Notes: generated by a model from the letters alone, not told the origin. 64,000 nt of DNA from a virus (IMGVR_UViG_3300021168_000018), one strand, 5' to 3'. Counted from the first letter of the stretch, positions 12,378-35,976 are shown. Made by a program: numbers and translations.

Positions 12378-13393
12378 TCCTTGTCTAACTGTTCTCTGTG
12401 CTTCCGGTAGTATTTCGGGAACTGCTTTCTCGTCATCACGGACCCACGATATCTATATGAAGCGTGCTGCTTCTTGAAGATATCGTTCTCTACGCAATAC
12501 TCCCAGATGGATAGTGATTTGTGGATTCCCTTGTCGAAATAAATTGGGAGCAGGCAGCTTCTTTCGGGCGGCGCGACTTTGTTCTTTGTACATTCCATTT
12601 TAGAGAGATAGCCGACCTTCTCATCCGCTGAGTTCTTGATAACTTTGATTCTAGATATCCTTGCGCGAACCAAAGCGTAAAATCGCAACGCCTTCCCGCC
12701 ATACGTTGTCTCCTTGCTGCCCCACATGACGCCTAGATTGGTCCTGGTCTGATTGACGCATATCAAACAGACCTTGTTTACGAATAGGAACCGAACCAGC
12801 CGGCGAAATAGCTTCGACATCTGGAGAGCCGACCGGCCCATGTCACTGCCTTCGAGTCCGGCTTTGTTGGCGAGTTCTGACCTAGTTGGCGTCGCAGCAA
12901 TAGAATCCCAACCTATTACGATTGGGGTGTTCTGGTCCGTCTTACGGATTTCGCCAACGATTGATTTGATCTGAGCATATACGTCCTCCACTGTCTCCAC
13001 TTCGCAAATGAGCAGCTTACTTTCGTCCAGTCCCACGTTCTTGGCCCTGCGATGCTCTAGAGAATACTCCGTAGGGAAGAGAATCGTGTAGTATTTATGG
13101 CGCTGACTTTCAGCAAGTGTTTCCTCCATGATAGCACTTTTGCCACTGGCTTCATTGCCGTATATCTCAACAATTCCGGGAGGAAATCCGAGTCCGTAGC
13201 AGACAATGCAATCAATAGGTAGAATGCCGCTAGACACGTAACTTCTAGGCTGGCTAAAAACGCTGTCTCCAAGTAGCGACGTAGAATTGCCATTTTTGTC
13301 CTTGTTGTACTTTTTTATGATACGCTGCAACACTTTGTCACGGACGCCACGAGGCTCCTCACCCTTCTTCAGTCGTGGAAATCTATGTATCAT
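12341..13393 (-). CDS. recA: RecA/UvsX recombinase
   Basis: EIYGNEASGKS, WDSIAA, CVNQTR, TYGGKALRFYA, KNKVAPP. Confidence 0.92.
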   Translation of the reverse strand: MIHRFPRLKKGEEPRGVRDKVLQRIIKKYNKDKNGNSTSLLGDSVFSQPRSYVSSGILPIDCIVCYGLGFPPGIVEIYGNEASGKSAIMEETLAESQRHKYYTILFPTEYSLEHRRAKNVGLDESKLLICEVETVEDVYAQIKSIVGEIRKTDQNTPIVIGWDSIAATPTRSELANKAGLEGSDMGRSALQMSKLFRRLVRFLFVNKVCLICVNQTRTNLGVMWGSKETTYGGKALRFYALVRARISRIKVIKNSADEKVGYLSKMECTKNKVAPPERSCLLPIYFDKGIHKSLSIWEYCVENDIFKKQHASYRYRGSVMTRKQFPKYYRKHREQLDKECRQSTVVRAEK

Positions 13394-14882: not shown

Positions 14883-14895
14883 ATGAAACGCTATT
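14883..14895 (-). promoter_or_regulatory. Conserved upstream motif AATAGCGTTTCAT, copy 1
   Basis: Exact 13-mer, 18 nt before the GTG at 14864. Confidence 0.7.
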
Positions 14896-17560
14896 ACTGC
14901 AAAAACTGTTTTGGAATGATAAACTGGCCGGGTATCTTCGTGTGTTCAAGTTCCACCATGTCGCCCATGTTCTTGTCGCCTATCGCACAGTCTGTGTCGA
15001 GTGGCACGTTCAATTTCCAGCCAATCGTCTTCAATAGGTATTTTCTATCGCTCATGTAGAAATGCAGTTTCGGCACCACGAGTCTCAACTCTTTACGATA
15101 GGCATCCAAATAGACAGCGTCGTAAACGTAATTGATTACCCTAGTTTTCATCTGATTTCTCAGGAGCCAGTGCTGCATTCTGTACGCTGCGATAAGGTTA
15201 ATATCGGATGCATCCCCTTGTATCGGCGCGTTGATTCCCTCTCGTATTGCGTGGTTCGCACGACCTATGTCCTCATCCGCCGCTTCTGGTAGTCTTCTGT
15301 GACGATTGTAATGTGAAACGGACAGGCAGTCTTTCCTGATGCGTTCCTGCTCAGCTTCTAGATATGCTGCGATGCCGTGATATTTCCCAAAGTACCGGCT
15401 CTTGAATTCTTCGGCTTTTTGCAATGACCAGCCAAAATCCGCTGCGAGCGCTTTGGCGTCACGACCGTACACTAGACCGAATGACACAGCGTTCTTACTA
15501 TAGCTCCGTAGCTCCTTCTGTTTCTCAGCGGGCAATTTGTTCCATCTCTTTTCAGTGTACTCGAACGCCGCTTGCGCTCCCTTGGCGTGCGGGTCCTCGC
15601 CAGCCATGAACTCGGCAATCATCACTTTGTCTTTGGCCCTGTCAGCCATCAAGCGCAATTCGATTTGCTTAGAGTCTTGCTTGACTATGACATTGCGTTC
15701 GCTGCTCGGTACAAACTGGCTCATCAGCTCATCTGTCAAAGAGCTGCGAGCAGGCAGGTTGTACATATTCGGGTCTTGACATGACGGTCGGCCAGTCCTG
15801 GTCCCATGCGGCAAGTGACTACCATGCACTCTGTTGTCTGTGCCTATCCACTTCGTCGGGAGCGGCAGGATATATTTCGAGTGTGCCGAGGAATACTTGC
15901 CACGTTCTATCATCCGTTTAAGGATTGGACTTTTGTGCTTCTGCTGCAACTCCTCGATTATCCAGCGCTTGACGGAGTCTAGCCCGGAATCAGTTTCATC
16001 CAGCGACTCGTACTCCAGCACCTCAAACAGCAATTTTCGCCGGATGTCTGGAGAGTTCAGGTTGATTGGCTTTTTGTTTTTCTTGTAAATCTCGAAAACT
16101 TTCGCCTTGAAATTCGGCGGTTTCTTTTTGTAGCCTTGGACATGTTCGTAAGCGTCCGCAAATGATTTCTCGTCGGCTTCTTTTTGAAGCTGTTTGATTT
16201 CTGGATAGCTATAGAGTTTTTCGTCCAGTTTGCTGATGCGGTCCCTGTAGAGCACGTCTAGCTGGCTGTTACGCTTTTCACTGGCTTTGATACCGACCAC
16301 TTGCATCATCATACAAATCCAACTTATCGGCATCAATGGAAACATTAGTGGTTTCTCGAACAGCCCTTCCGCTTTCAGCTTCTTTCTCTGATAGAAAAAC
16401 AGGCGGCGCGTCGCTATGCAATCGTCGCCGTTGTATGGATACAGGATGTCCGTAGGGATTAGATTGTAGTTAGCTCTAGCTTCTGGATTGGTCAGCTTGT
16501 ACTGTTCCAGCATCTGGTCGTATGATGGCATGTCTACGCGGCCACACCACTTGTCTAATCCATGCAGTCCTCGCAGTTCGTTAAGAGCGTAACTCGCCAG
16601 CATCCCATCGAAATATGCGCCGGTCTTGTGGCCTTTGCCGCCGAGCCAGATATTGTGCTTGACTCCTACATATCCCACGTCGTAGATGCCGTTCCACACG
16701 AGCCATTTCAGCCCTGGATACTCCCAGACTTCCTTGACGCCTTCTAACACTTCTTCTGGACGCAGCTTGCAGCCCTTTAATCCTACTCTAGCGTGGACCG
16801 GAAATTCCCACGAGTGTTCGTTTGTGTCAGCTACACCTATTACCCCTGTCTCTGCTTTCGCCTTTCTTGAAAATGGTGACAGCGTGCTGGCTTCTATGTC
16901 GGTAGCCGGATATTCGCATTTCTTAATTGCATCCACGGCCTCTTGCAGCATCTTCCTATCTAGAATTGTCGTGTGGACGCGGTCTGACTTTGCGTGTATC
17001 GACCTGGAAGTGGCGGCACGTTTAGCGACTCGCAATGCATCAAGGAAGGATTTTCGAGTAGCAGGAGTGTTGTTTCGCAGCAAATAGGCGGGATGGAACA
17101 TGCAGACATATTTCAGCCTGCCTATATCGATGACTTGTCCATGTAGTTTAAGGATACCGGATCTATTGAGGATTGATTTAATTGCTGAATTTCCAATGAG
17201 CACGACAACTTTAGGACCAGTCGCTCTGATTTCCCTGAGGATATGCGGTCGACAATGTGCGATTGCGTTGGGAAACTTGCTAAGGTTATTTTCTGGAGGT
17301 CGACATCTCACCACGTTCGTAAAACGGCATTTGTCAATTGGGATTCCAGCGTCTTCAATACTTTGTCTAAGTTCACTACCGCTCTCTCCAGCAAAAGGGT
17401 ATCCTTCATCATCTTCCTCCCGACCCGGAGCCTCTCCAACGAAGAGCCATGTTGGATTCTTGCTGCCTTCACCATTCATCACGGGATGCTGACACAATTT
17501 GAATAGACCGCATGGTTCGCAGAACGAGTCTGGTTGCCGGATTACGTTAAGACTTAGCAT
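14894..17560 (-). CDS. polA: Family A DNA polymerase with N-terminal family-4 UDG domain and 3'-5' exonuclease
   Basis: UDG: CEPC...VGEAPGREED, TNVVRCRPP, MFHPAYLLR. Exo: TDIEAS, YNGDD. Pol: GTRTGR, DSKQIELR, KNAVSFGLVYG, NAPIQG, VYD. Confidence 0.95.
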   Translation of the reverse strand: MLSLNVIRQPDSFCEPCGLFKLCQHPVMNGEGSKNPTWLFVGEAPGREEDDEGYPFAGESGSELRQSIEDAGIPIDKCRFTNVVRCRPPENNLSKFPNAIAHCRPHILREIRATGPKVVVLIGNSAIKSILNRSGILKLHGQVIDIGRLKYVCMFHPAYLLRNNTPATRKSFLDALRVAKRAATSRSIHAKSDRVHTTILDRKMLQEAVDAIKKCEYPATDIEASTLSPFSRKAKAETGVIGVADTNEHSWEFPVHARVGLKGCKLRPEEVLEGVKEVWEYPGLKWLVWNGIYDVGYVGVKHNIWLGGKGHKTGAYFDGMLASYALNELRGLHGLDKWCGRVDMPSYDQMLEQYKLTNPEARANYNLIPTDILYPYNGDDCIATRRLFFYQRKKLKAEGLFEKPLMFPLMPISWICMMMQVVGIKASEKRNSQLDVLYRDRISKLDEKLYSYPEIKQLQKEADEKSFADAYEHVQGYKKKPPNFKAKVFEIYKKNKKPINLNSPDIRRKLLFEVLEYESLDETDSGLDSVKRWIIEELQQKHKSPILKRMIERGKYSSAHSKYILPLPTKWIGTDNRVHGSHLPHGTRTGRPSCQDPNMYNLPARSSLTDELMSQFVPSSERNVIVKQDSKQIELRLMADRAKDKVMIAEFMAGEDPHAKGAQAAFEYTEKRWNKLPAEKQKELRSYSKNAVSFGLVYGRDAKALAADFGWSLQKAEEFKSRYFGKYHGIAAYLEAEQERIRKDCLSVSHYNRHRRLPEAADEDIGRANHAIREGINAPIQGDASDINLIAAYRMQHWLLRNQMKTRVINYVYDAVYLDAYRKELRLVVPKLHFYMSDRKYLLKTIGWKLNVPLDTDCAIGDKNMGDMVELEHTKIPGQFIIPKQFLQ

Positions 17561-19530: not shown

Positions 19531-19976
19531 CGTTTCTCCTTGCGCTTGGCTCGCAGGCGCTCGACGTTGACGTAGCAGCCAAAGAATCCGTGATGCCGGC
19601 CTTCAAGTACACGCAGCGGCCTTGCCAACTGTGGATGTGTCGCCAACCGCACCTTCCGCTCTTTGGTCTTCACCACCCACCTACTTTCAGCGCGTCCTTG
19701 CGAATCTTCAACATAAGCTCGGCGAAAGTTTCATCGCTCATCGCTTTACAGGTCATATAATCCCACGCTTCGGCCTTCAACATTGGACGCTTCCAGAGAC
19801 GCTTGAGCCATTTACGAGCTTTGGTCTTCATGTCTGGCGCTCCGGCTTCTTCTCTTCTTCAAGTTGCTTCCCGCAAAGGACGCAATACGTTGGGTATACG
19901 CTTACTTCAAACTCCTCTTTGCAATGAGGGCAATTTACTTCGTATCTGCCGTAATCGGCTCGTTCGACGCCCATGC

Positions 19977-20441
19977 TCATTTCTCCTCCATCGCTTTGCG
20001 AATCGCGGCTGCCTTACAATGCTCGGTGCAGGGTGGCAAACCGTGCATCCACTCCCCTGCGACTAATTGCGACGATTGCGGCCCGAAGCGCATACAGGCA
20101 CCGCATATTTGAACACATGCTTCCTCCATCCCGGCACGACGGGCGGCGGCTAGAGAAACTGAGGGATTCAGCTTGCTGGTCCACAGCAAGTCAAATTGTT
20201 CGCGTGTGAGATGGCATGTAATCTTATCGCCCTCAGCCGTCAGCAAGGAGTCGAGGCTGGAGATGAGCATCTGCTCAACTAGCAAATATGCATCGTCCGG
20301 GTCAAAGCCAAGATGCTTCCCTTCAAGGTCAACAAGGACGCACTTCTCATTACATTCGTTGATGATACGTTTCGCCAGCTCCGCTAGCCGCTCAGTGAGA
20401 GGAGTCGGGGTCATGACAATTTCCTCACTTCCTCCAGCCAC
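19977..20441 (-). CDS. Hypothetical protein (probable start 20414)
   Basis: Coupled to neighbouring genes. Confidence 0.45.
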   Translation of the reverse strand: MAGGSEEIVMTPTPLTERLAELAKRIINECNEKCVLVDLEGKHLGFDPDDAYLLVEQMLISSLDSLLTAEGDKITCHLTREQFDLLWTSKLNPSVSLAAARRAGMEEACVQICGACMRFGPQSSQLVAGEWMHGLPPCTEHCKAAAIRKAMEEK

Positions 20442-20866
20442 GACTTCACTTCATCAGGGTTCAACTGCGCCTGCCTGCATATCTCCTTGACGCAATAGAC
20501 CGCCAAGTCCGCCAGATTTGTCACTCTGCTCTCGCCGACGTTGTTGCCGTGGAATCTGGCGTCCAGGATATCGTACTTGCGCTGGATATTGGCGAATATG
20601 CTTTCGTCGCCGCGCTTCATCCAGCTCGCCTCGTAGGATTTTCCTTTGACTGCTTCTAGTTTGGCTAGGACGCCGCAGACGAATGCGAAGCCGTAGTTTG
20701 TCTCTGGAGCAAGAGGCGCATCTCCTATCTCAAGGATATCGGCAGCACGTATCCCGTGCGCGATTCCTCTCTCAACATCTGACAGGAAATCTTTCCCGCT
20801 CACAACCCTTTCTAGCGCTCTGTTTCGCGCCTCAAAGTATAGTTCTGTTTCACGCTGCGTCGGCAT
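20411..20866 (-). CDS. Nucleotide-modification-associated domain protein (DUF1599/Nmad1-like)
   Basis: KGKSYEASWMKRG...IFANIQRKYD...LADLAVY; directly downstream of the TS-like gene. Confidence 0.55.
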   Translation of the reverse strand: MPTQRETELYFEARNRALERVVSGKDFLSDVERGIAHGIRAADILEIGDAPLAPETNYGFAFVCGVLAKLEAVKGKSYEASWMKRGDESIFANIQRKYDILDARFHGNNVGESRVTNLADLAVYCVKEICRQAQLNPDEVKSWLEEVRKLS

Positions 20867-20875
20867 CGTTCCTCC

Positions 20876-21937
20876 TCAGGTATACTTCACTGCCAGTGCT
20901 GCTTTCCTTGCCAGTTCGTTCTTGCTATCCCTATAGAAATCCACAGCCAGCCAATCAAACGGTTTGACCAGCCATGTTTCCATAGCTGATGCTGTCTCTT
21001 CCACTGTCGCGTCCGCTGTTATTTTCGGAGTTTTCAATTGACAGAACAGCCTGAGCGCTTCCACAATCGCTTGCAGATATTTGTTAGAACACGCCCCGAC
21101 CATAGGAGGCTCTTGCGTGAGTCCTGGTCTAAAAGTGTTCACGTAGTTTATGAACTCGTTTAGCTCTTTATCGTTGAATATTTGGAAATATTCAGCTTTC
21201 TCTGCTTCGATTGGGTGCTCCTCGTCGTAAGCCTGCTCGACCAGATTCGCCAGCGTAGACTTGTACTGGTCTATGTAGACGTGTAGGTTCTGTATGAAAT
21301 AGGTCAATGTGCCCATTTTCGCGCCGAGCAGACCAGCGACGTAGGCGTGGATATGCGTGAACTGGACGGCATTGATAGGCGTGCCCCAGACCAGATCGTT
21401 GCTGCGGATGACGACTGACTGGTTCAAGACGCCATCACGAAGCTCGTACGCGACCCAATTATTACAAGGGTAGTCTTTGGAAGTCACAAAATTATCCATA
21501 TCTGGATTCCAGAGCATCATGACAGCTTGGCGTGAAAACGGGTCTGCTTTGAGCTTTCGCACTACCCAATCTATCTGGTCCGTAGTCACTTTATCTTGTG
21601 GAACAGGCCATTTTCTCAAACGCAACCCGTATGCGCCATGGAAGTTTTCATCGCCGTCAGCAAAGTCTCGCATCTTGCTGCTGAAGTAGCTAATCCACTC
21701 CACGTTCCCGTTGCCAGACAGTATCCATGGGATTTCGGCCAGCGCCAGGAACGGATTCCACTTGCGACCGGGAATGCACATCCAGCAATATCCCGGCTCT
21801 GCATATTCCAAGACTACTCTGTCTGGAAACTCCATGCAGTCGTGGCCGCGCACTGTCACACGACGGCCATGTTTCATCAAATCTCGGATGATTTCGTAGT
21901 AGACATCGCCGATACCGCGCCCTCTGTAGACTCTCAT
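20876..21937 (-). CDS. Thymidylate-synthase-superfamily enzyme, probably dUMP hydroxymethyltransferase
   Basis: SRQAV, DYPC, IRSNDLVWGTPIN (Asn at the dUMP-specificity position), NLHVY; neighbourhood is base-modification genes. Confidence 0.8.
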   Translation of the reverse strand: MRVYRGRGIGDVYYEIIRDLMKHGRRVTVRGHDCMEFPDRVVLEYAEPGYCWMCIPGRKWNPFLALAEIPWILSGNGNVEWISYFSSKMRDFADGDENFHGAYGLRLRKWPVPQDKVTTDQIDWVVRKLKADPFSRQAVMMLWNPDMDNFVTSKDYPCNNWVAYELRDGVLNQSVVIRSNDLVWGTPINAVQFTHIHAYVAGLLGAKMGTLTYFIQNLHVYIDQYKSTLANLVEQAYDEEHPIEAEKAEYFQIFNDKELNEFINYVNTFRPGLTQEPPMVGACSNKYLQAIVEALRLFCQLKTPKITADATVEETASAMETWLVKPFDWLAVDFYRDSKNELARKAALAVKYT

Positions 21938-22269
21938 CCGCCCACCAATTCTTGCATTGTAGGATTTTCCCTATAGCTGTATCGTGACTCAACAATCATT
22001 CTCAGCTGTACCCTAGGAATCTCGTTTCTGTGACAAGCTACATAATGGACTGCCAGAGAATTCGTACCTAATCTCCTTCCGCACACTTTAACGACTAGGT
22101 CAGCGCTTCCAGACTTAGCCCCACAGATACAAGTATGACTTCCTTTGTAATGCGCCACTTCTTTCGCCTTTCTCAAAATAGCAGTCACTTTCATGGTGAT
22201 GTCATCTATTATCACCGTCCTGCCTTTCTTCTTTGGCTCTATCATCAAGAAACCGTTCTCATTTATCAT
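21934..22269 (-). CDS. Hypothetical Cys/His protein
   Basis: YKGSHTCICG...NSLAVHYVACH; coupled on both sides. Confidence 0.5.
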   Translation of the reverse strand: MINENGFLMIEPKKKGRTVIIDDITMKVTAILRKAKEVAHYKGSHTCICGAKSGSADLVVKVCGRRLGTNSLAVHYVACHRNEIPRVQLRMIVESRYSYRENPTMQELVGG

Positions 22270-23246
22270 TCTAGCTCCCTTGGAAATCGTATTTGTCCTT
22301 GCGGATTTTCGCCAGTAATTGGCTTGAATTTCATTCTGTGTTTTCCAACTCCGTTTTGGACATTCACATACTTCCTAAACTCACAACAGGAATGCTCCAC
22401 GCTTCTAAGTGTCAGTGGCTTCCCGGGGTACAGGTATGGGAAGTCCAGTCCCAATCGCTTGAAATGCTTCTCTTGCTCGTTGGCAAGTTGTCGCATCTTT
22501 TCCAGATACTCTCCACGTTCGCCAGCCAGCGGGAATATCAACTTAATGCCGCCCTTCGCGCCTGGACCGCAGTTTGCCCAATCGTCTTCCGAAAATGGGA
22601 CCGCTTTCACTAAAATCAAATCGCAACAAATTTCATAGCTAATGAAGCTGCCGACGCACGGAATCTGCTTGAGGATTATGAACAATTGTTCTAGACTGTG
22701 GCATGATTTAATTTGATTCAAGAGTCTAGGAATAATCAACCATAACTCATCGAGGACTTCAAAGTATTTGTCTATCTTGCTCTGCCCTTTTTCATGGACA
22801 GGCAGCGTCAAGTGCGCATTCGTAAATACGCATTCTGTCTTGTGTAGTTCCTTCAGCTCTTTCTTCCACTCACGTTTGTCGTCATGCCATTCCTCATGGG
22901 AAACGAAATGTGTTTTGTCAAACGTCTCAACTCTATTCAGCAAACGATATTGTGTTGTAAGCCAGAGCAGCTCTTTAGACATAGAGCCGGACAGCGCAAG
23001 TCCAGTGCCAGCGTTCATGCATTCCAAGTAAAACTGTGTTCCACGGTCCAGCTCGCGGTACACGTTCGTGAATTTCAGGTCGCGCAATATCGGGTCCTTG
23101 GTCCACGGCGGCGGCTGCTTGAGCCTGAAACGCTTGTGCCAGATCATGTGACGCTCGAACATGAATCTGTAGAACGCGTCAAGATTCGGCCTGTACACTT
23201 CCACTCGCGGCAGGTTCTCCCACGGCTTCTTCTTGGATTTTGTCAC
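22266..23246 (-). CDS. aGPT-Pplase1 / 5-hmdU DNA kinase-like protein
   Basis: FMFERHMIWHKR...PPPWTKDPILRDLKFTNVYRELDRGT N-terminus plus an HhH-like IPCVGSFISYEICCDL. Confidence 0.75.
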   Translation of the reverse strand: MTKSKKKPWENLPRVEVYRPNLDAFYRFMFERHMIWHKRFRLKQPPPWTKDPILRDLKFTNVYRELDRGTQFYLECMNAGTGLALSGSMSKELLWLTTQYRLLNRVETFDKTHFVSHEEWHDDKREWKKELKELHKTECVFTNAHLTLPVHEKGQSKIDKYFEVLDELWLIIPRLLNQIKSCHSLEQLFIILKQIPCVGSFISYEICCDLILVKAVPFSEDDWANCGPGAKGGIKLIFPLAGERGEYLEKMRQLANEQEKHFKRLGLDFPYLYPGKPLTLRSVEHSCCEFRKYVNVQNGVGKHRMKFKPITGENPQGQIRFPRELE

Positions 23247-23589
23247 TTCGTCTCCTTTGCGGTCTCGGGAACATGGTTTTCAGCATCTTGGACACGGATT
23301 TCAGGTCATCCACTAGGTCATCGATTTCCAGCGCGTAGTCCCCATTATCGGCACGACGTATCATGCTTTCCACCTTGCTTATAATGGACTCTGGAGTGAT
23401 TCTGGTTCCCTTCTTTTTATCGCGACAGGATTTGCAGTGAGTAGGCATACTGAATTCCTTGCCCTCTGCCGTCTTGCGCTCTATTATGTCTTCAAAGAAC
23501 TGTTTCTCTCCGACTGTCATGCTCCATGGCTGATGGCAGCCGGGACACTCGTTGGGCATTTGAATCAATTCGTCTACTTGCGTCATCAC
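23179..23589 (-). CDS. Zinc-ribbon (zf-trcl-like) protein
   Basis: CPGC...TVGEKQFF...PTHCKSCR. Confidence 0.55.
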   Translation of the reverse strand: MMTQVDELIQMPNECPGCHQPWSMTVGEKQFFEDIIERKTAEGKEFSMPTHCKSCRDKKKGTRITPESIISKVESMIRRADNGDYALEIDDLVDDLKSVSKMLKTMFPRPQRRRSDKIQEEAVGEPAASGSVQAES

Positions 23590-24440
23590 TTCTCCTTTGC
23601 TAGTCTAGGAAATCTAGGGAAAACTTGCGGCAGCTTATCTCTCATTTCAGGCTTCCAGTATATCTGAAGTTCGTAGTCGCTGCTCGTGGGACCGTGCTTG
23701 ATTCTGGAACTGAGGACGCCCTTCCACCGCTCCAGCAGATAGTCGTAGGCTTTCTTCTCAGCGCCGTATTTTTCACGGTTGAGATTTGCTCCACCTGGAT
23801 TGGTCCTATGCCTGAAGTCTGAGAGGACGTAATTACAGCGCAACACTTTGCCGAATGTTCTCAAATGACGCAGCGTATACTCATAGTCTTCCTTGACCAG
23901 CGTCTTCTCGTCAAAGTAGATACCGCACGGCTTGACCACGCTGAAATCCCCGAGCACTAGACAGTTTGTGGAAATGAGCGGTCTATTTTTCGGCGGTATA
24001 GTGTTCCCTGTTCGCAGACCTATGCTCATCAGTGGATTCGAGTTGGAACTTGTACCACCTAGATACACGTCTCCAACGGAGTCCATGTTCGCCTTGACTA
24101 TCATAGCCGCTGCAAGTGCGGTGAGTGGCTGCATCCTGTCCGTGGCTAGACTGAAACGCCGCAAGTCGTCTGAAATCTGCACGCAAGGAACACCTTGTCT
24201 CCATGCGTCATCCAGAGCCATGTTCCTGCTATGCGACAAATCACCGCCACATTTCACGTTCTTAGCTCCAGCTTTGTAATAGGTCTCGACTTCGCCATGA
24301 CCCACATACCACGTCGCTGAGGTGCCAAGATATTTCTTCACTTCTGACACGCTATCAGGACGCCCATGACTGATAACTGCGAAGTAGATTTTTAGGTCTG
24401 GGTGCTTCACAGTGTACCTGCTATCTTCACGAGTTCCCAC
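23586..24440 (-). CDS. GT-A glycosyltransferase, TAGT/GREB1/base-J-GT-like (paralogue 3)
   Basis: ISHGRP, SRN, SDD, KEDYEYTL, NPGG. Confidence 0.7.
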   Translation of the reverse strand: MGTREDSRYTVKHPDLKIYFAVISHGRPDSVSEVKKYLGTSATWYVGHGEVETYYKAGAKNVKCGGDLSHSRNMALDDAWRQGVPCVQISDDLRRFSLATDRMQPLTALAAAMIVKANMDSVGDVYLGGTSSNSNPLMSIGLRTGNTIPPKNRPLISTNCLVLGDFSVVKPCGIYFDEKTLVKEDYEYTLRHLRTFGKVLRCNYVLSDFRHRTNPGGANLNREKYGAEKKAYDYLLERWKGVLSSRIKHGPTSSDYELQIYWKPEMRDKLPQVFPRFPRLAKEK

Positions 24441-25402
24441 GGACGCTTGGCCGGCTCTGTGTATGGGTCACCGCTTGCTGCCTGTTTGACATTTTGTTTG
24501 TCTGTTTCATTCGGCTCTCTGAGATGGACTTTCCCAAACTTGTCTGGCAATAGACCCACGCGGTAGGACTTTGCATCGCACACATTACATGGATGCACTG
24601 ATGCCCTGTCTTTCTGCATCAGGAACCGGCGTGCAGAGTTCAGCTTCTCACTATGCCATATTTCAAGGAGCCCGTCCTTCTCGATGTTGCCGACCTTGAA
24701 TATCCCGGCCCAATCGTTACAACAGATTGCCACGTTCCCATCCCACCGCACCGATAGTTCTCGAAACGGTTTGGCACAGAGCGCTTCTAGTGGCTCTCGC
24801 AGAGGCTTGCCTCCACGACCACAGTGATTGTTGAGTATTGAGTGCGTTCCCTTGTCAGACCTGCTGATGTCCTTGATGCGGATGAATAGCTTGGCTTTGT
24901 GTCCGTAGCGATTGTGCGGCGAGAACTCCCTCTCCTTGGGATACCTATGGACTTGGAAGCCTAGCTTTTTCGCACCCTCCAATTGCTCGTCCACCTTGTC
25001 CTTGATTTTAACGTAGTCGTAAGCGTCGAATGCAAATACGTTTAGACCTCCCCACAGGAACAAGTTTTTCAGATTGTCTATGACGCCAGGAGTTTTCAGC
25101 AATCCGCCGCCATTGCTGGTCATCATCAGTTGGCTCTTGGGCAAAAACTTTCGAAATATGCGTACCATGTTTGCACAGTCGTCATGCATCGTCGGCTCTC
25201 CGTGCATAGCGAATTCAATACGGGAGTTCCAGCCAGCTTTGTGTATTTGACTAGCCAAATCCATAACAGTGTCTTTTGACATCATGTTATACGTCTTGTC
25301 TGTTTTCTCGCGGATACCTTGAAGTCCGCAGAAATTACAGTACAGATTGCAGCCCTCCACGAGTTCTATTTGGATTGCGAACGGGGGTTCTTGCTTATAC
25401 AT
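24407..25402 (-). CDS. Radical SAM protein with SPASM/twitch domain
   Basis: GCNLYCNFC, HGEP, C-terminal CAKPF...ICCNDW...CNVC. Confidence 0.9.
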   Translation of the reverse strand: MYKQEPPFAIQIELVEGCNLYCNFCGLQGIREKTDKTYNMMSKDTVMDLASQIHKAGWNSRIEFAMHGEPTMHDDCANMVRIFRKFLPKSQLMMTSNGGGLLKTPGVIDNLKNLFLWGGLNVFAFDAYDYVKIKDKVDEQLEGAKKLGFQVHRYPKEREFSPHNRYGHKAKLFIRIKDISRSDKGTHSILNNHCGRGGKPLREPLEALCAKPFRELSVRWDGNVAICCNDWAGIFKVGNIEKDGLLEIWHSEKLNSARRFLMQKDRASVHPCNVCDAKSYRVGLLPDKFGKVHLREPNETDKQNVKQAASGDPYTEPAKRPWELVKIAGTL

Positions 25403-26111
25403 AGATGCATCCTCCGATTCCCGCCGCTTTCTTCCAGTTGATTCTGGCTATGTATTTCCCTTTCATCTTCACGATATCTGGAAACAGCCTCCCCAAGTGG
25501 ACCGCTTCCTGCCTCTCGATTTTGTGATTTCTCCATAGACTGCATCCGCCTGGAGCGTGTGACACGTCGTCATTGGCCCATTCTGTCAGCACGCAATTAT
25601 CACAGCCTGCCAGCAAGAGCTGTAGATTCATGTCGTGGTCTTCACCGACTTCGCACCTGAATCTAGGCGTAGGCTCTGGAAACAGTTTTTTATTATAGGC
25701 TAGAATATGGTAGTAGCGAGCGTTATAGATGCGGTCCCGCGGTCTAGTTTGGGACATATACTTCTCCGTGATTCCGGCGTGCGCGAAGATGTCTAACGTG
25801 GCGTCTAGCTCTTCGAACATTTTCCTGATGCTTTTAGGAGTGGCTTTTTTGAAAGAGCCGTCTGACTTGCGGCTGTAGAATCGCAGATCGTCATCCAGCA
25901 TAACAAATTTCCCTTCGGCCCATTCCAAGATAAACTGGCGGATAGCTCTTATGCCACGTTCTGCACGCGCTTCTAATATATTAGCGTTAGGAGTGCTCGC
26001 TGGATGGTTATCTCCTTTGGTCAGGACCAGTGTATAGTCTAGTCCTGATTCGTCAAGCAACTCGGCAGTTTTCTGCTGTGACCTACCCGCCGTGGGAATG
26101 TAGATATCCAT
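25395..26111 (-). CDS. GT-A glycosyltransferase, TAGT-like (paralogue 2)
   Basis: IYIPTAGR, IRQFIL, MLDDDL, GEDHDMNLQLL, APGGCS. Confidence 0.75.
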   Translation of the reverse strand: MDIYIPTAGRSQQKTAELLDESGLDYTLVLTKGDNHPASTPNANILEARAERGIRAIRQFILEWAEGKFVMLDDDLRFYSRKSDGSFKKATPKSIRKMFEELDATLDIFAHAGITEKYMSQTRPRDRIYNARYYHILAYNKKLFPEPTPRFRCEVGEDHDMNLQLLLAGCDNCVLTEWANDDVSHAPGGCSLWRNHKIERQEAVHLGRLFPDIVKMKGKYIARINWKKAAGIGGCIYV

Positions 26112-26922
26112 GCTCTTGCCTCCAGCGATTCACACTATTCTCCGAATGCTTCAAGAACCGGACCGTTTTCAGTTTGCTCTCTACGATTCCCACTAGACCC
26201 GGGAACGCTTTCACGATTCTATATAGGTAATCCTCTAGACCATGTGCTTCCCGATATTTTCGGCTGCCTAGACCGCCCTCTTCGCACATCTTGGCTTTGT
26301 AATATAGGAAATTGTCCACCAAGACCTTGCCATGGACTGCGACACATTGAGCTGACAGCCAGCTATCCATTCCATACTTGTTTTCGAAATGGAAATAGCC
26401 AGTGTTTTTCATCGCGAACACTTTGGTCCGTATGAACTTGAAATTGGAATAGCGACGTGGCCTAAAATACGGATTTTCCATGCTTGCTACGCCGACGAGT
26501 GGAGCGTTTTGCTCTTCTGCCAGCTTGATGTCTTTCTTGAACTCTCGCAGCCAGTTAGAAAACATGGCTTTCCTATTGTAGAGCTGTCGCCAGCTTAAGA
26601 AATCGTGTGGGGGGTTTTTAGTCGTATCATTTTTCCAATTGTCTCTCCAAGGATGCATGACCATTGTGAAGTGTTGGATGTTGTCGTCCATGCCGATATA
26701 CCAGTCGTTTTTCTGCACTAGATGCTCTAGAATCCAATTGCGCTTTGCGACCAGAGTTTTCGTGTGACTGCAATGATATGTATGGTACGGGAACGCACGA
26801 ATCAGGCGCTTCTTAGCTTCCTCATCATGGACCACGACTCTGGCTTCTACACCTTCCGTTTGCAGGAGCCTGAGCGTGTGGCAGCGTTCCACGACGCCTT
26901 TAGATACGACTATGATTTTCAT
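26083..26922 (-). CDS. GT-A glycosyltransferase, TAGT-like (paralogue 1)
   Basis: VVSKG, KRNWIL, GMDDNI, EGGLG. Confidence 0.6.
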   Translation of the reverse strand: MKIIVVSKGVVERCHTLRLLQTEGVEARVVVHDEEAKKRLIRAFPYHTYHCSHTKTLVAKRNWILEHLVQKNDWYIGMDDNIQHFTMVMHPWRDNWKNDTTKNPPHDFLSWRQLYNRKAMFSNWLREFKKDIKLAEEQNAPLVGVASMENPYFRPRRYSNFKFIRTKVFAMKNTGYFHFENKYGMDSWLSAQCVAVHGKVLVDNFLYYKAKMCEEGGLGSRKYREAHGLEDYLYRIVKAFPGLVGIVESKLKTVRFLKHSENSVNRWRQEHGYLHSHGG

Positions 26923-27215
26923 CTGTGTTTACGCCTCAAACTATCTCTCTTCTTAAGCTTGACTATGTAATTTTCAACAGCTTCATCGCTTTCGATACTC
27001 ATGTTAGCATCTCTAATGAAAGCGGCCTTCTTAGATAGAGCTTCTACTTTTTCCTTATGTTCATAGCAAGAGCCCTTATCTTCAAAGACGAAAACTACCG
27101 GCTTCTTCTTACAAATCATACACCCATTATGGATTGCCACAGCACGCTTAACTCTCCAACGAAGATTGATACGGACAGCTTCAACGTTTCCTACTCCTTT
27201 TATAATGTGTGTCAC
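26919..27215 (-). CDS. Hypothetical protein
   Basis: Coupled ORF with CxxC. Confidence 0.4.
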   Translation of the reverse strand: MTHIIKGVGNVEAVRINLRWRVKRAVAIHNGCMICKKKPVVFVFEDKGSCYEHKEKVEALSKKAAFIRDANMSIESDEAVENYIVKLKKRDSLRRKHR

Positions 27216-27277: not shown

Positions 27278-28507
27278 TCAGTCCTCAGACTCTTGAGATT
27301 TGAGGAAGTTTTTGAACGCGATACGCAGAGACTTGCCAAGCTTCGCCACTTTCCCCACGTAATCATATTTCCCGCCGCCTCTTTTCTTCCAATTCGCAGC
27401 ACGAAGGCCGAGTTCCTCCGGCTTCGCCCTGAGCCTGAACACGAATTCATCCTCAGACTTCGGCTTTTGGATATAGACAGCTTTCTTATCTCCAATGTAG
27501 ACAAAGGGCAACTTCAGCTTGCCGTCGTAGCTCTTGTACTTGGACGCGTTCAGGATGGACTGGACGGCGTCGGATACTTTGCCCTTCGACTTGGATTCCT
27601 TCTCCGGCTTTTCCTTCTTGGATTTCTTGCCCTTCTTCTGCTTCTTCTCGGAGCGCTCTTCCTGTTCTTCCTCGCGATGCTTTTTGTGCTTTTTCACTTT
27701 CTTACCTTTCCCTTCCTTTTCGAGTTTTTCCGCATTGGCTTTCATGACCTGCTTGCAATGCTTGGCCTCTACGCAACGCTGGCATTCTGGCACATCTGGG
27801 TCGTTGTACTTCCCAAAACAGTCCTCAATCCCCGCTGGAATAGGGATAGATGGCGCACGCGGCGCATAGTTCTTGATTTGGACGAGAGAAGAGGACGCTT
27901 TCGCGTCCCCCTCTTCATCGTCGTCATCGTCGTCGTCGGAATCGTCATCATCTGACTCTTCCTCGTCTTCGTCGTCATCCTCTTCGTCCTCATCTTCGTC
28001 ATCGTCAGACTTGGACTTTTTCTTTTTCTTCTTTTTCTTGCCCTTGTCATCGTCGTCATCATCGTCGTCGTCGGACTCTTCTTCCTCGTCATCATCTTCC
28101 TCAGAGTCCTCGTCGTCTGAGTCGTCGTCTTCCTCGTCTTCGTCCGCATCGCCATCGGACTTTTTCTTCTTTTTCTTCTTGGACTTTTTGTCGTCCTCTT
28201 CCTCATCATCGTCATCGTCTGAATCGTCGGAGTCATCTTCATCTTCGTCATCATCGTCCGACTCTTCATCGTCGTCATCTTCTGACTCGTCTTCCTCATC
28301 CTCGTCATCGTCGTCAGAAGATTTCTTGCCCTTCTTGCCCTTTTTCTTTGGCTTCTCGTCTTCCTCTTCGTCGTCTTCCTCTTCTTCGGAATCGTCGTCA
28401 TCGTCTGACGATTCGTCCTCTTCCTCCTCGTCTTCGTCGTCTCTGGACTTTCCCTTCTTGGCCTTGTGCGCTTTCTTCTTGTGACTGCCTTTCGACTTCT
28501 TAGCCAT
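27278..28507 (-). CDS. Charge-block, largely disordered protein (long D/E tracts alternating with poly-K), central C-x9-C-x2-C-x5-C motif, small C-terminal domain
   Basis: Translation shows ~200 residues of D/E/S with KKKK blocks, then CFGKYNDPDVPECQRCVEAKHC. Confidence 0.8.
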   Translation of the reverse strand: MAKKSKGSHKKKAHKAKKGKSRDDEDEEEEDESSDDDDDSEEEEDDEEEDEKPKKKGKKGKKSSDDDDEDEEDESEDDDDEESDDDDEDEDDSDDSDDDDDEEEDDKKSKKKKKKKSDGDADEDEEDDDSDDEDSEEDDDEEEESDDDDDDDDDKGKKKKKKKKSKSDDDEDEDEEDDDEDEEESDDDDSDDDDDDDEEGDAKASSSLVQIKNYAPRAPSIPIPAGIEDCFGKYNDPDVPECQRCVEAKHCKQVMKANAEKLEKEGKGKKVKKHKKHREEEQEERSEKKQKKGKKSKKEKPEKESKSKGKVSDAVQSILNASKYKSYDGKLKLPFVYIGDKKAVYIQKPKSEDEFVFRLRAKPEELGLRAANWKKRGGGKYDYVGKVAKLGKSLRIAFKNFLKSQESED

Positions 28508-29888: not shown

Positions 29889-29901
29889 ATGAAACGCTAT
29901 T
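29889..29901 (-). promoter_or_regulatory. Conserved upstream motif AATAGCGTTTCAT, copy 2
   Basis: Exact 13-mer, 18 nt before the GTG at 29870. Confidence 0.7.
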
Positions 29902-35526: not shown

Positions 35527-35976
35527 CTACCGCGTGGCCTTTTGAATCCGGCGTTCTGTTTCCCTGAGTTGCTTCTTGGTCCACGTCCGTGCTGCCGGAT
35601 GCAGCAACCAGAACACCGTTCTACCATCAACGTCGAGTGATGAAAAATATTCGAAATCAATATTCTTATCGGAGAGTGCATAACCAGACTCTCTGAATGT
35701 TTTCCTAGCTACAGCGCCACAAACTAGAATTATGCTTGGATTCAAGCGTGTCAGGTTTTCATGGAGCCATTTTGCGTCCGGCTTTCCGTGGTGGTTGGCA
35801 GACGTGACTAGTTCGCGGCAGCAATTCGTCACGACCAGCCGATGCGCGTTTTCTGGCCCTACGAATTTGTAGAGTCGCTTGCCAGATTTGTTATGCGGGT
35901 TGATTTTGAAATATCGTGGAGCGCGGCCTTCCCTGTCGCCCCACATTGTTTCGAGGACTGCGACGATGAAACTCAC
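35527..35976 (-). CDS. Minimal uracil-DNA-glycosylase-fold protein
   Basis: VTNC, PSIILVCGAVA, LLHPAAR pattern. Confidence 0.45.
   Translation of the reverse strand: MSFIVAVLETMWGDREGRAPRYFKINPHNKSGKRLYKFVGPENAHRLVVTNCCRELVTSANHHGKPDAKWLHENLTRLNPSIILVCGAVARKTFRESGYALSDKNIDFEYFSSLDVDGRTVFWLLHPAARTWTKKQLRETERRIQKATR

What the first reader, a model, noticed from the sequence alone, without database searches (positions are those of the whole stretch)
20411..26922. Thymidine-hypermodification cluster with an unfamiliar enzyme combination
Coupled genes encode a dUMP-hydroxymethylase-like enzyme, an aGPT-Pplase1/5-hmdU DNA kinase-like protein, a DUF1599-like protein, three TAGT/base-J-type GT-A enzymes and a radical SAM-SPASM enzyme. 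In described pathways (phiW-14, ViI, M6) the kinase works with an amino-acid:DNA transferase (aGPT-Pplase2), which I do not see in this window. Glucosylation of hmU is known as kinetoplastid base J. Both routes together, plus three GT paralogues, point to a new, possibly multi-sugar or phospho-sugar modified T.
Basis: partly seen in the sequence, partly recalled or inferred. Interest (0 to 1): 0.8.

Follow-up and report, generated by a model that had tools for sequence, protein, structure and literature searches.

The report
Kinase-free sugar modification of phage thymine
An uncultured soil phage carries a tightly packed gene set that most likely replaces thymine with hydroxymethyluracil and then decorates it with sugars reshaped by a radical enzyme, without the DNA kinase that all characterised thymine-hypermodifying phages use, so its DNA probably holds a base nobody has yet identified chemically.

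Summary
The genes are real and form one translationally coupled minus-strand operon (27215-19977). It holds three TAGT-type GT-A glycosyltransferases, a radical SAM enzyme, a Zn-ribbon protein, an aGPT-Pplase1 protein, a TS-fold enzyme with the uracil-specifying Asn, and a weakly DUF1599-like protein. A UDG-fused PolA lies downstream.

- The "5-hmdU DNA kinase-like" protein is only the helical HhH domain (PF18723). It has no P-loop. No P-loop HMUDK and no ADDT/aGPT-Pplase2 is found anywhere in the 64 kb. So the kinase route is absent, not combined with glycosylation.
- The radical SAM enzyme is a BtrN-like one-auxiliary-cluster "twitch" enzyme.

The module Pplase1 + GT(s) + BtrN-like rSAM + TS recurs in 28 IMG/VR contigs. 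Six of these genomes are ≥92% complete and lack the kinase.

Within the window's own lineage the slot upstream of Zn-ribbon–Pplase1–TS is swapped. The closest relative carries two HMUDK kinases, an FAD oxidoreductase and a phosphatase there instead.

Most likely product: a glycosylated, radical-SAM-tailored 5-hmU (base-J-like, possibly oligosaccharide). The role of Pplase1 is unresolved.

This scan has reported the same kinase-less module on other genomes. TS+Pplase1+GT co-location was noted in print for pelagiphages, but no product has been identified chemically. Verdict: a new variant of thymidine hypermodification.

The parts
26919..27215 (-). 98-aa Cys-rich small protein, first gene of the coupled block (4-nt overlap with the next gene)
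   Evidence: ORF list; no Pfam/PHROG hit. Its role in the system is not shown.
26083..26922 (-). GT-A glycosyltransferase, TAGT family (279 aa), 'GTc' type
   Evidence: PF20691 7.1e-08, 33.1 bits against a cut-off of 27.5, N-terminal half only. phrog_842 9.5e-15. MDDN motif. Homologues lie next to the rSAM in L008 and L010/L011.
25395..26111 (-). GT-A glycosyltransferase, TAGT family (238 aa)
   Evidence: PF20691 3.1e-14; phrog_842 2.3e-24. LDDD motif. Homologues occur in 14 rSAM loci and next to Pplase1/TS in the cultured phages LuckyBarnes and PhiJL001.
24407..25402 (-). BtrN-like 'twitch' radical SAM enzyme (331 aa). It has CNLYCNFC plus a C209 / C227-C228 / C272 / C275 auxiliary-cluster motif.
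   Evidence: PF04055 + PF13186. PDB phmmer best hit is BtrN, 1.2e-9. The AF2 model (pLDDT 78) has BtrN 4m7t as best Foldseek hit: E 9e-13, TM 0.81 by target; the next hit is at 1e-6. Invariant Cys residues in an 18-sequence alignment.
23586..24440 (-). Third TAGT-like GT-A glycosyltransferase (284 aa; probable true start at 24410, giving a 4-nt overlap). It carries a C-terminal RFPR tag.
   Evidence: No Pfam hit. Atlas features 0.98 to TAGT clusters. ISDD motif. Orthologues are 60-66% identical in lineage relatives L042 and L044/45, where this GT is paired with the rSAM.
23179..23589 (-). Zn-ribbon protein (136 aa; CxxC...CxxCR) that overlaps the Pplase1 gene by 68 nt
   Evidence: Conserved immediately upstream of Pplase1 in L031, L042, L043 and L046, with invariant C15, C18, C52, C55. 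An NrdR-type Zn ribbon holds the same position in L014-L018.
22266..23246 (-). aGPT-Pplase1 / HMUDK_hel HhH-type protein (326 aa). It has no kinase domain. It has an invariant E284-H285-x-x-C288-E289 motif and a C-terminal RFPR tag.
   Evidence: PF18723 5.4e-59. It aligns only with SP10 gp186 residues 315-598. The AF2 model has pLDDT 82. The best VIA-align match is the PaMx11 gp46 5-PmdU glycinyltransferase 8z2n: Z 10.7, 221 residues. Motif alignment to the AADT E-T-x-x-C.
21934..22269 (-). 111-aa Cys/His-rich protein between the Pplase1 and TS genes
   Evidence: ORF with 4-nt overlaps on both sides. No family hit. Not conserved in relatives. Role unknown.
20876..21937 (-). TS-fold enzyme (353 aa), probable dUMP hydroxymethylase
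   Evidence: PF00303; phrog_5131 3e-66. Catalytic Cys is present (YPCNN). Asn lies in PINAVQF at the position where T4 dCMP hydroxymethylase has Asp. It is closer to the TS-like genes of hmU-derived-modification phages (YungSlug 2e-37) than to any ThyA in the PDB (2.6e-16). It has a long C-terminal extension like SP10 gp188 and M6-type enzymes.
20411..20866 (-). 151-aa protein, weakly DUF1599/MazG-like; homologue of the SP10/YungSlug gene that follows the hydroxymethylase
   Evidence: phrog_22490 1.8e-5. tblastn to the YungSlug 199-aa protein 3e-9. Atlas DUF1599 0.90, TM 0.51/0.66. No Pfam hit at E<=1.
14894..17560 (-). UDG-fused family A DNA polymerase (888 aa), context gene
   Evidence: PF03167 UDG + PF01612 + PF00476. 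This fusion type is described for phages with T-modified genomes (title and abstract of PMC13697223).

Best explanation
The cluster is a kinase-independent branch of phage thymidine hypermodification.

Step 1 (inferred from family and active-site residues). The TS-fold enzyme hydroxymethylates dUMP. After phosphorylation by host kinases, the UDG-fused PolA builds 5-hmdU into phage DNA in place of T.

Step 2 (inferred from family membership and conserved gene context). TAGT-type GT-A glycosyltransferases put sugar from host NDP-sugars on the 5-hydroxymethyl oxygen, as JGT does for base J and the T-even enzymes do for hmC. With three divergent GTs the product may be a di- or trisaccharide, or several alternative sugars.

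Step 3 (inferred from fold). The BtrN-like twitch radical SAM enzyme abstracts a hydrogen from a sugar carbinol carbon. It thereby oxidises, epimerises or otherwise remodels the sugar, either on DNA or on the NDP-sugar donor.

Step 4 (unresolved). The aGPT-Pplase1 protein is an HhH, base-flipping relative of the amino-acid:DNA transferases. It keeps their Glu/Cys catalytic motif and is invariably present. Either it does C6-thiolate chemistry on the modified base, exchanging the C5-methylene substituent without a phosphate leaving group, or it presents hmU to the GTs.

The genes sit in a swappable slot of a conserved replication operon. Close relatives hold other tailoring sets there.
For: Gene identities.

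Operon coupling: overlaps of 4-68 nt. No promoter or terminator excess inside the block.

Uracil specificity: Asn where T4 gp42 has Asp, plus the catalytic Cys.

Synteny with SP10/YungSlug in the order kinase-Pplase1, TS, gp189-like, HU, UDG-PolA. SP10 DNA is known to carry an hmU-derived base (PMC5889632, PMC8989533).

The rSAM resembles BtrN by sequence and fold.

Recurrence. Of the 28 IMG/VR loci found with the rSAM:
- 23 have the TS-like gene.
- 21 have Pplase1.
- 22 have at least one GT-A or GT-B.

NDP-sugar genes sit in the same blocks of relatives:
- a nucleotidyltransferase-cupin in L026 and its cluster;
- an NAD epimerase/dehydratase in L044.

5'-deoxynucleotidases (YfbR-like, NT5C) lie next to the TS in relatives.

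No kinase and no ADDT:
- Custom HMUDK HMM on six frames of the window: best E 0.89.
- Pfam on about 70 ORFs.
- phmmer with the M6-type AADT.
- Genomes G002, G003, G006, G011, G013 (100% complete) and G012 (92%) lack PF18748. The positive control G001 was found.
- G002 and G003 gave no PF18724 match, but that search rang nowhere and had no positive control, so it is weak evidence.

Among 80 Pplase1 loci, 7 have a kinase, 32 have a GT and none has both.

Pplase1 is structurally closest to PaMx11 gp46 (Z 10.7). Its invariant E-H-x-x-C-E motif aligns with the metal-binding Glu243/Thr244 and catalytic Cys247 of gp46.

The RFPR docking motif is shared by Pplase1, GT284, the slot enzymes of relatives, RecA, FtsK and the resolvase. 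There are 11 copies against 0.17 expected. This places these enzymes with the DNA machinery.

The cultured phages LuckyBarnes and PhiJL001 have Pplase1 + TAGT-type GT + TS side by side.
Against: - No chemistry: nothing here shows that virion DNA is modified.
- Hydroxymethylase versus methylase cannot be told from sequence.
- The window is 64 kb of a contig of up to 104 kb. About 10 kb on each side was seen only as gene tables of near-identical contigs, with no kinase or ADDT Pfam. So 20 kb or more is unseen and could hold a kinase, as in ViI where the genes are dispersed.
- The ADDT absence in complete relatives rests on a search without a positive control.
- The closest relative's 67%-identical Pplase1 works beside two kinases. 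So the window's enzyme might still need a phosphorylated substrate.
- The rSAM substrate (DNA-bound sugar, NDP-sugar or the base itself) is not determined.
- The Pplase1/AADT motif alignment has low hhalign probability (E 0.07). Z 10.7 is moderate for a helical protein.
- rSAM + GT pairs also occur without TS or Pplase1 in three proviral or partial records (L017, L023, L030).
Confidence: 0.6

Rival explanations
1. Classical route with extras. A P-loop 5-hmdU DNA kinase is encoded in the unseen part of the roughly 100-kb genome. Pplase1 then acts as the group transferase on 5-PmdU, as the Pplase1 domain of SP10 gp186 presumably does. The GTs and the rSAM only elaborate the attached group.
For: - The window is part of a contig of up to 104 kb.
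- In ViI the pathway genes are dispersed (PMC5889632).
- The 67%-identical Pplase1 of L031 sits beside two HMUDK genes.
- SP10 has a kinase-Pplase1 fusion and no clade-2 enzyme.
Against: - No kinase in 64 kb, nor in the roughly 10-kb gene tables on each side.
- Six genomes >=92% complete that carry the same rSAM/GT/Pplase1/TS module have no PF18748.
- Kinase and GT never co-occur within 9 kb of Pplase1 in 80 loci.
- In this lineage the tailoring genes occupy one slot, and here it is filled by GTs and the rSAM.
Confidence: 0.12
2. Simple base-J-like glucosylation. One GT makes glucosyl-hmU. The other GTs, the rSAM and Pplase1 are accessory, redundant, or act on other sequence contexts, so the final base is a plain hexosyl-hmU.
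For: - TAGT / phrog_842 family membership.
- The cultured phages LuckyBarnes and PhiJL001 have GT + Pplase1 + TS without the rSAM.
- Relative L042 shows GT284 + Pplase1 + TS on its truncated contig.
Against: - The rSAM is tightly and widely coupled to the GTs: 22 of 28 loci, with overlapping genes here.
- Its invariant catalytic and auxiliary Cys residues argue for an active enzyme.
- NDP-sugar tailoring genes occur in relatives.
Confidence: 0.15
3. Not a DNA-base pathway. The TS-like enzyme is an ordinary dTMP synthase, and the GTs and rSAM modify a non-DNA target such as host envelope glycan, a phage protein or a small molecule.
For: - rSAM + GT pairs occur without TS or Pplase1 in proviral records L017 and L023 and in partial record L030.
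- BtrN-type enzymes are known on small molecules.
- A further weak GT hit lies among the structural genes.
Against: - PF18723 and TAGT are DNA-base-modification families.
- The block is embedded between replication genes and translationally coupled to the TS-like gene and Pplase1.
- The UDG-PolA fusion is typical of T-modified phages.
- RFPR tags are shared with RecA, FtsK and the resolvase.
- The TS-like protein groups with hydroxymethylase-type enzymes of hmU phages.
Confidence: 0.07

Closest known systems
5-hmdU-derived thymidine hypermodification of M6, PaMx11, ViI, PhiW-14 and SP10 (Lee et al. 2018, PMC5889632; 2021, PMC8989533)
   Same: - dUMP-hydroxymethylase-type TS next to the polymerase.
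- Post-replicative tailoring genes clustered beside it.
- An aGPT-Pplase-family HhH protein.
- A radical SAM enzyme in some systems.
- Synteny with SP10/YungSlug.
   Different: - No P-loop 5-HMUDK, no clade-2 ADDT and no PLP/FAD enzyme.
- Three glycosyltransferases instead.
- The rSAM is BtrN-like (sugar/cyclitol type), not the M6 gp53 glycinyl-thymine isomerase type.
- The appended group is therefore expected to be a sugar, not an amino acid or polyamine.
Base J (beta-D-glucosyl-hydroxymethyluracil) of kinetoplastids
   Same: The predicted core chemistry, a GT-A enzyme glycosylating 5-hmU in DNA, would give a J-like base.
   Different: - hmU is made before replication by a TS-fold enzyme, not by a JBP dioxygenase. 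No dioxygenase was found among the roughly 70 ORFs scanned.
- Several GTs, a radical SAM enzyme and Pplase1 are added.
- It would be a bulk genome modification for defence evasion, not a regulatory mark.
Phage hmC glycosylation (T-even alpha/beta-GT and beta-glucosyl-HMC-alpha-GT; metavirome MT/5mYOX/GT pathways, bioRxiv 10.1101/2023.12.21.572611)
   Same: - GT-A enzymes of the phrog_842/TAGT kind.
- Multi-GT clusters that build di- or oligosaccharides on a hydroxymethylpyrimidine.
- That preprint records GT-A genes next to ThyS in metaviromes.
   Different: - The base is uracil-type (Asn in the TS-fold enzyme), not cytosine.
- That work mentions neither the Pplase1 partner nor the BtrN-like rSAM partner (0 occurrences of 'radical SAM').
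TS + aG/PT-PPlase1 (+5'-deoxynucleotidase, +glucosyltransferase) 'partner AMGs' of HTVC023P-type pelagiphages (PMC9599517); the Pplase1-GT-TS clusters of Brevibacterium phage LuckyBarnes and phage PhiJL001
   Same: Kinase-less co-location of the TS-like gene, Pplase1 and a TAGT-type GT beside PolA.
   Different: - Those reports are annotation only.
- No rSAM: the window's rSAM has no homologue in 50,697 cultured or deposited phage records except one weak fecal-contig hit.
- One or two GTs there, against three here.
BtrN (2-deoxy-scyllo-inosamine dehydrogenase, butirosin pathway)
   Same: - Best sequence and fold match of the rSAM.
- CX3CX2C plus a single auxiliary [4Fe-4S] 'twitch' Cys set.
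   Different: - 17-21% identity only.
- 60-80 extra residues, including an invariant GTHSxLNNH loop.
- Phage DNA-modification context.
- Substrate unknown.

Membership tests
5-hmdU DNA kinase (5-HMUDK, PF18748 P-loop kinase) | P-loop kinase domain with Walker A (GxNGxGK[ST]) | tested here: not met
   The 326-aa protein has no Walker A motif. It aligns only to the C-terminal residues 315-598 of SP10 gp186. A custom HMUDK HMM finds nothing in six frames of the window; the best hit is E 0.89 to FtsK.
aGPT-Pplase1 / HMUDK_hel (PF18723) | Pfam model above the gathering score over its full length | tested here: met
   200.3 bits against a cut-off of 25; residues 22-297 on model positions 4-275 of 281.
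aGPT-Pplase1 / HMUDK_hel (PF18723) | HhH DNA-glycosylase-like, AADT-like fold with a conserved Cys-Glu | tested here: met
   The AF2 model has pLDDT 82. VIA-align gives Z 10.7 to PaMx11 gp46, then Ogg/AlkA-type glycosylases. C288-E289 are invariant in 15 sequences.
Amino-acid:DNA transferase (ADDT/aGPT-Pplase2, PF18724) | Match to PF18724 or to a proven AADT sequence | tested here: not met
   No PF18724 hit in any scanned ORF. phmmer with the M6-type gp51 orthologue gives a best window hit of E 0.34.
TAGT glycosyltransferase (PF20691, GT-A) | Pfam model above the gathering score, plus an acidic DxD-type motif after beta-4 | tested here: met
   238-aa protein: 53.8 bits, LDDD. 279-aa protein: 33.1 bits (cut-off 27.5), N-terminal half only, MDDN.
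TAGT glycosyltransferase (PF20691, GT-A) | The same, for the 284-aa protein | tested here: inconclusive
   No Pfam or PHROG hit. Atlas features 0.98, with 97 of 100 hits in the TAGT set. ISDD motif. BLAST single-linkage cluster with TAGT proteins.
Radical SAM, SPASM/twitch subgroup | CX3CX2C SAM cluster; a full SPASM domain has seven Cys for two auxiliary clusters | tested here: not met
   CX3CX2C is present and invariant. The C-terminal domain has only C209, C227, C228, C272 and C275, matching BtrN's single-cluster twitch domain. So it is a twitch, not a full SPASM, although PF13186 scores 53 bits.
BtrN-type radical SAM dehydrogenase | Oxidation of a secondary alcohol on a sugar or cyclitol | not testable with these tools
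   Only fold and sequence likeness are available: Foldseek E 9e-13, TM 0.81 by target.
dUMP hydroxymethylase (TS fold) | Catalytic Cys and uracil-specifying Asn (Asp in dCMP/CMP hydroxymethylases) | tested here: met
   YPCNN and PINAVQF align to ThyA PCH / PFN and to T4 gp42 MCT / NDY.
dUMP hydroxymethylase (TS fold) | The product is 5-hmdUMP, not dTMP | not testable with these tools
   Indirect evidence only. It is nearer to the TS-like genes of SP10-like phages than to any ThyA. It has a long C-terminal extension. It co-occurs with Pplase1 and UDG-PolA.
DUF1599 / Nmad1 (PF07659) | Pfam model match | tested here: not met
   No hit at E<=1. Only an Atlas lead: 0.90 features, TM 0.51/0.66.
Base J pathway | JBP-type Fe/2OG thymidine hydroxylase acting on DNA | tested here: not met
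   No dioxygenase family among the roughly 70 ORFs scanned. hmU is expected from the TS-fold enzyme instead.

The most novel reading that the evidence does not exclude
The final base is not an O-glucoside of the base-J kind. In this reading the GTs and the BtrN-like radical SAM enzyme make a keto-, deoxy- or C-linked (oligo)saccharide on C5-methyl. Pplase1 is a catalytically active, kinase-independent C5-methylene transferase. It would use its Glu/His/Cys site to exchange or rearrange the substituent with a glycosyl-derived leaving group instead of phosphate. That would be a new way of activating hmU in DNA and a new class of carbohydrate-DNA linkage.
Probability: 0.2. Interest if true: 0.85.

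Novelty: new variant of a known kind. Interest (0 to 1): 0.62.

Why it matters
All biochemically solved thymidine hypermodifications start with phosphorylation of 5-hmdU by a DNA kinase, followed by displacement by an amino acid or polyamine.

This module lacks the kinase. It pairs the still-unexplained clade-1 Pplase with glycosyltransferases and a sugar-type radical SAM enzyme. It is widespread: 1552 rSAM clusters in metagenomes, and many complete phage genomes.

Identifying its product would have several consequences:
- It would add a carbohydrate branch to T-modification chemistry, and would be the first bacterial-virus analogue of base J.
- It would assign a function to aGPT-Pplase1.
- It would supply new DNA-glycosylating and DNA-glycan-tailoring enzymes for labelling hmU.
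- It would explain resistance of such phages to restriction enzymes, CRISPR and DNA glycosylases.

The lineage comparison shows one genomic slot being refilled with alternative tailoring sets (kinase/FAD, GT/rSAM, unknown proteins). This is a natural experiment on how phages diversify DNA chemistry.

Tried and rejected
- Megablast of the cluster against 50,697 phage records: no match.
- NCBIfam scan: only sub-threshold generic rSAM and TS models, nothing for the GTs, Pplase1 or small proteins.
- Profile search of Pplase1 against PDB sequences: only noise. Plain Foldseek was also weak, E>=0.2. Only VIA-align gave a usable ranking.
- Pairwise BLASTP among the three GTs: not significant, so they are not recent duplicates.
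- Suspected GT-Pplase1 fusion in L008: rejected. They are adjacent genes in different frames.
- Complex prediction of Pplase1 with the conserved Zn-ribbon neighbour: no verdict, score 0.00. This is evidence neither for nor against binding.
- The genome search on the window's own genome: none is held.
- Walking beyond the window with the look-up of encoding contigs gave gene tables but no DNA. The rest of the contig of up to 104 kb could not be scanned.
- Sequencing runs: only 2018 Illumina soil contigs, with no raw or nanopore reads. Modification-dependent miscalls could not be looked for.
- PF18724 search on relatives' genomes rang nowhere and had no positive control, so it counts weakly.
- Iyer et al. 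2013 (PMC3763556) is not held.
- A hydroxymethylcytosine reading was rejected because of the Asn at the specificity position.

Full report
**What is there**

The window is an uncultured soil phage. It has no megablast match among 50,697 phage records. The holders are soil-metagenome runs. The window's own rSAM protein lies on contigs of up to 104 kb. Nearly all genes are on the minus strand.

From 27215 down to 19977 the ORFs overlap by 4-68 nt or are 9 nt apart. Promoter-like and terminator-like sites are not above chance inside this stretch. An exact 13-bp motif seen upstream of four genes lies at 29889-29901, ahead of the block.

In transcription order the block encodes:
- a 98-aa Cys-rich protein;
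- a 279-aa TAGT glycosyltransferase (PF20691 7e-8);
- a 238-aa TAGT glycosyltransferase (3e-14; phrog_842 2e-24);
- a 331-aa radical SAM protein (PF04055 + PF13186);
- a 284-aa protein without a Pfam hit;
- a 136-aa Zn-ribbon protein;
- a 326-aa PF18723 protein (5e-59);
- a 111-aa Cys/His protein;
- a 353-aa TS-fold protein (PF00303 2.5e-27; phrog_5131 3e-66);
- a 151-aa protein.

The 284-aa protein is TAGT-like by language-model features: score 0.98, with 97 of 100 nearest clusters in the TAGT set. It links by BLAST to TAGT proteins of other contigs. All three GTs keep a DD(D/N/L) motif at the expected place. They are mutually too divergent for BLASTP.

Further downstream lie a UDG-fused family A polymerase, RecA, a flap endonuclease and SbcCD-like genes.

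**The 'kinase' is not a kinase**

PF18723 is the helical HhH domain formerly called aGPT-Pplase1. In the proven kinase SP10 gp186 the P-loop (GCNGAGKS) is in the N-terminal ~235 residues. The window protein matches only residues 315-598. In Bacillus phage YungSlug the P-loop kinase is a separate 229-aa protein two genes upstream of the Pplase1 homologue.

I built an HMM from five HMUDK sequences: SP10 gp186N, the YungSlug kinase, the M6-type MP1412 gp13 and the two from L031. Searched against every stop-to-stop frame of 60 aa or more in the window, it finds only noise (E 0.89, FtsK). It recovers all known kinases in the comparison loci.

Pfam scans of about 70 window ORFs show no PF18748, no PF18724 (ADDT), no PLP or FAD tailoring enzyme, no dCMP deaminase and no NDP-sugar enzyme. 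phmmer with an M6-type AADT finds nothing.

Gene tables of near-identical contigs reach about 10 kb beyond each window end. They list portal, Pyr_excise, capsid and methyltransferase families, but no kinase or ADDT.

**The TS-fold enzyme**

It keeps the catalytic Cys (YPCNN). At the position that reads the pyrimidine (Asn177 of E. coli ThyA, Asp179 of T4 dCMP hydroxymethylase) it has Asn. So its substrate is dUMP, not dCMP.

It resembles the TS-like proteins of phages with hmU-derived bases far more than any crystallised ThyA: YungSlug 2e-37 and SP10 gp188 at 30% identity, against 2.6e-16. It shares their long C-terminal extension.

The local order [Pplase1]-[TS]-[151-aa gp189-like]-...-[UDG-PolA] is the order in SP10 and YungSlug. 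UDG-fused PolA enzymes are described as typical of phages with T-modified genomes (PMC13697223). Hydroxymethylation rather than methylation remains an inference.

**The radical SAM enzyme**

The best PDB sequence match is BtrN (1.2e-9, both halves). An AF2 model from an 18-sequence alignment (pLDDT 78) matches BtrN at Foldseek E 9e-13 with TM 0.81 by target. The next structure is six orders of magnitude weaker. Other sugar-acting rSAMs (SpeY, DesII, BlsE) follow.

The C-terminal domain has five Cys (C209, C227, C228, C272, C275), all invariant. That fits BtrN's single auxiliary cluster ('twitch'), not a two-cluster SPASM.

**Pplase1**

The AF2 model (pLDDT 82) is best matched over its full length by the PaMx11 gp46 5-PmdU glycinyltransferase: Z 10.7, 221 residues. 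HhH DNA glycosylases follow.

Fifteen family members share an invariant C288-E289 and near-invariant E284-H285. hhalign places EHSLCE on the M6-type AADT's ETVLC (weak, E 0.07). This corresponds to Glu243/Thr244 (metal ligands) and Cys247 (C6 nucleophile) of gp46 (PMC11472151).

The protein therefore looks catalytically equipped. No function for clade 1 has been shown. M6 and ViI reconstitutions did not need it (PMC8989533).

**Comparative genomics**

The rSAM retrieves 28 IMG/VR loci at 40-60% identity. It retrieves 1552 metagenomic clusters at E<=1e-10, none informatively named. It has no homologue in cultured phages.

In the 28 loci:
- the TS-like gene is present in 23;
- Pplase1 is present in 21;
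- at least one GT is present in 22.

The GT is either TAGT-type GT-A or a ~340-aa protein with GT-B/GT4 hallmarks (GGW...DGGGTQY..EA.DAG). The usual order is Pplase1-GT(s)-rSAM-TS-...-PolA. GT number varies from one to three.

Relatives add an NDP-sugar nucleotidyltransferase-cupin, an NAD epimerase/dehydratase and 5'-deoxynucleotidases next to the TS.

Six genomes with the module rated 92-100% complete lack PF18748. The same search found both kinases of L031. Where Pplase1 seemed missing in a complete genome (G006), it lies at the other contig end.

Among the 80 best Pplase1 loci, 7 have a kinase within 9 kb, 32 have a GT and none has both.

**A swappable slot**

Five relatives share the window's backbone at 40-89% protein identity: HU, a 255-aa protein, a sigma-like protein, an acidic/Lys-rich ~400-aa protein, then the SLOT, then (in most of these relatives) the Zn ribbon, Pplase1, TS, the DUF1599-like protein, UDG-PolA, RecA and FEN.

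The slot holds:
- in the window: 98-aa protein + GT279 + GT238 + rSAM + GT284;
- in L044/L045: rSAM + a GT284 orthologue only;
- in L042: a GT284 orthologue (contig ends there);
- in L043: two unknown proteins of 435 and 463 aa;
- in L046: a 489-aa protein with a weak GT-B hit;
- in the closest relative L031 (Pplase1 67% identical): an FAD oxidoreductase, a 303-aa unknown, a low-molecular-weight phosphatase and two P-loop HMUDK genes.

So the same Pplase1/TS core is served either by kinases or by GT + rSAM.

**A docking tag**

RFPR occurs 11 times in the window proteome against 0.17 expected. It lies at the C-termini of Pplase1 and GT284 and their orthologues. It also lies on the unrelated slot proteins of L043, L044 and L046, at the N-terminus of an L031 kinase, and on RecA, FtsK, a PDDEXK nuclease and a 4-copy 112-aa protein. 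This places the slot enzymes with the DNA-handling proteins and argues that DNA is their substrate.

**Expression hint**

Four short contigs of a soil metatranscriptome, identical to the window, lie on the Zn-ribbon, GT284 and GT238 genes. DNA carry-over cannot be excluded.

**Comparison with what is known**

- Cultured phages LuckyBarnes (gp38-41) and PhiJL001 (gp19, 22, 24) have Pplase1 + TAGT-type GT + TS, but no rSAM.
- A pelagiphage study noted TS + aG/PT-PPlase1 with a 5'-deoxynucleotidase and a glucosyltransferase, without chemistry (PMC9599517).
- A metavirome GT study recorded GT-A genes near ThyS, with no mention of radical SAM.
- No paper in the library holds 5-hmdU, glycosyltransferase, phage and radical SAM together.
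- Earlier reports of this scan describe the same kinase-less GT/rSAM module on other genomes. I treat these as leads. The present conclusions rest on the calls cited above.

**Verdict**

The 'kinase plus glycosylation' reading is wrong in its kinase half.

The best-supported model (0.6) is pre-replicative hmU followed by kinase-independent glycosylation with radical-SAM sugar tailoring. Pplase1 acts as an obligatory but functionally unresolved HhH partner.

It is a new variant of thymidine hypermodification. It is common in nature and chemically uncharacterised.

Noticed in passing
window 22278-22289, 23604-23615, 13373-13384, 5025-5036, 44366-44704 and others; L042, L043, L044, L046, L031: The tetrapeptide RFPR occurs 11 times in the window proteome against 0.17 expected. 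It sits at protein termini. It is conserved on orthologues, and also on non-homologous 'slot' enzymes of relatives (a 463-aa unknown, a 489-aa putative GT-B, a 305-aa protein, an HMUDK kinase). It looks like a lineage-specific docking peptide that gathers replication, recombination and DNA-modification enzymes on one hub, possibly the 112-aa four-copy protein.
   Followed up: partly
window 19975-20441: The 154-aa ORF after the DUF1599-like gene is a strain-variable spot. Other soil contigs skip 20013-20371, or diverge exactly at 19975 and 20414 with different sequence.
   Followed up: no
L031 5-3307 (IMGVR_UViG_3300012200_000020): The closest relative fills the same slot with an FAD oxidoreductase, a 303-aa unknown protein, a low-molecular-weight phosphotyrosine-type phosphatase and two P-loop HMUDK paralogues. 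It has no recognisable clade-2 ADDT on the fragment. This suggests Pplase1 is the transferase there. A phosphatase in a T-modification cluster is unusual.
   Followed up: partly
window 14894-17560 and 35527-35976: Besides the UDG domain fused to PolA, there is a second, stand-alone UDG-superfamily protein of 149 aa (PF03167 2e-7).
   Followed up: no
window 1687-2853: A 388-aa protein with a DRAT-like (dinitrogenase reductase ADP-ribosyltransferase) C-terminal domain lies between the two terminase-related genes (PF07357 1.4e-7).
   Followed up: no
window 27278-28507: The 409-aa poly-Asp/Glu and poly-Lys protein directly upstream of the slot is conserved in position, at 39-50% identity, in relatives L043, L044 and L046. 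It is therefore a stable part of this operon.
   Followed up: no
window 60600-63618 and beyond the right end: Among the structural genes there is a 400-aa protein with a sub-threshold GT9 hit and two tandem 315-aa ORFs of equal length. In a contig that carries the same 315-aa protein, two SAM-methyltransferase genes and a capsid gene follow just outside the window. This may be virion protein modification.
   Followed up: no
L043 5950-8645: In a 93-kb relative the slot holds two proteins (435 and 463 aa) with no Pfam match. The second ends in two RFPR tags. They are candidates for yet another unknown T-modification chemistry.
   Followed up: no
window 23305-24026, 25650-25846: Four short contigs from a soil metatranscriptome run are identical to parts of the Zn-ribbon, GT284 and GT238 genes. 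This hints at expression in situ, but DNA carry-over is not excluded.
   Followed up: partly
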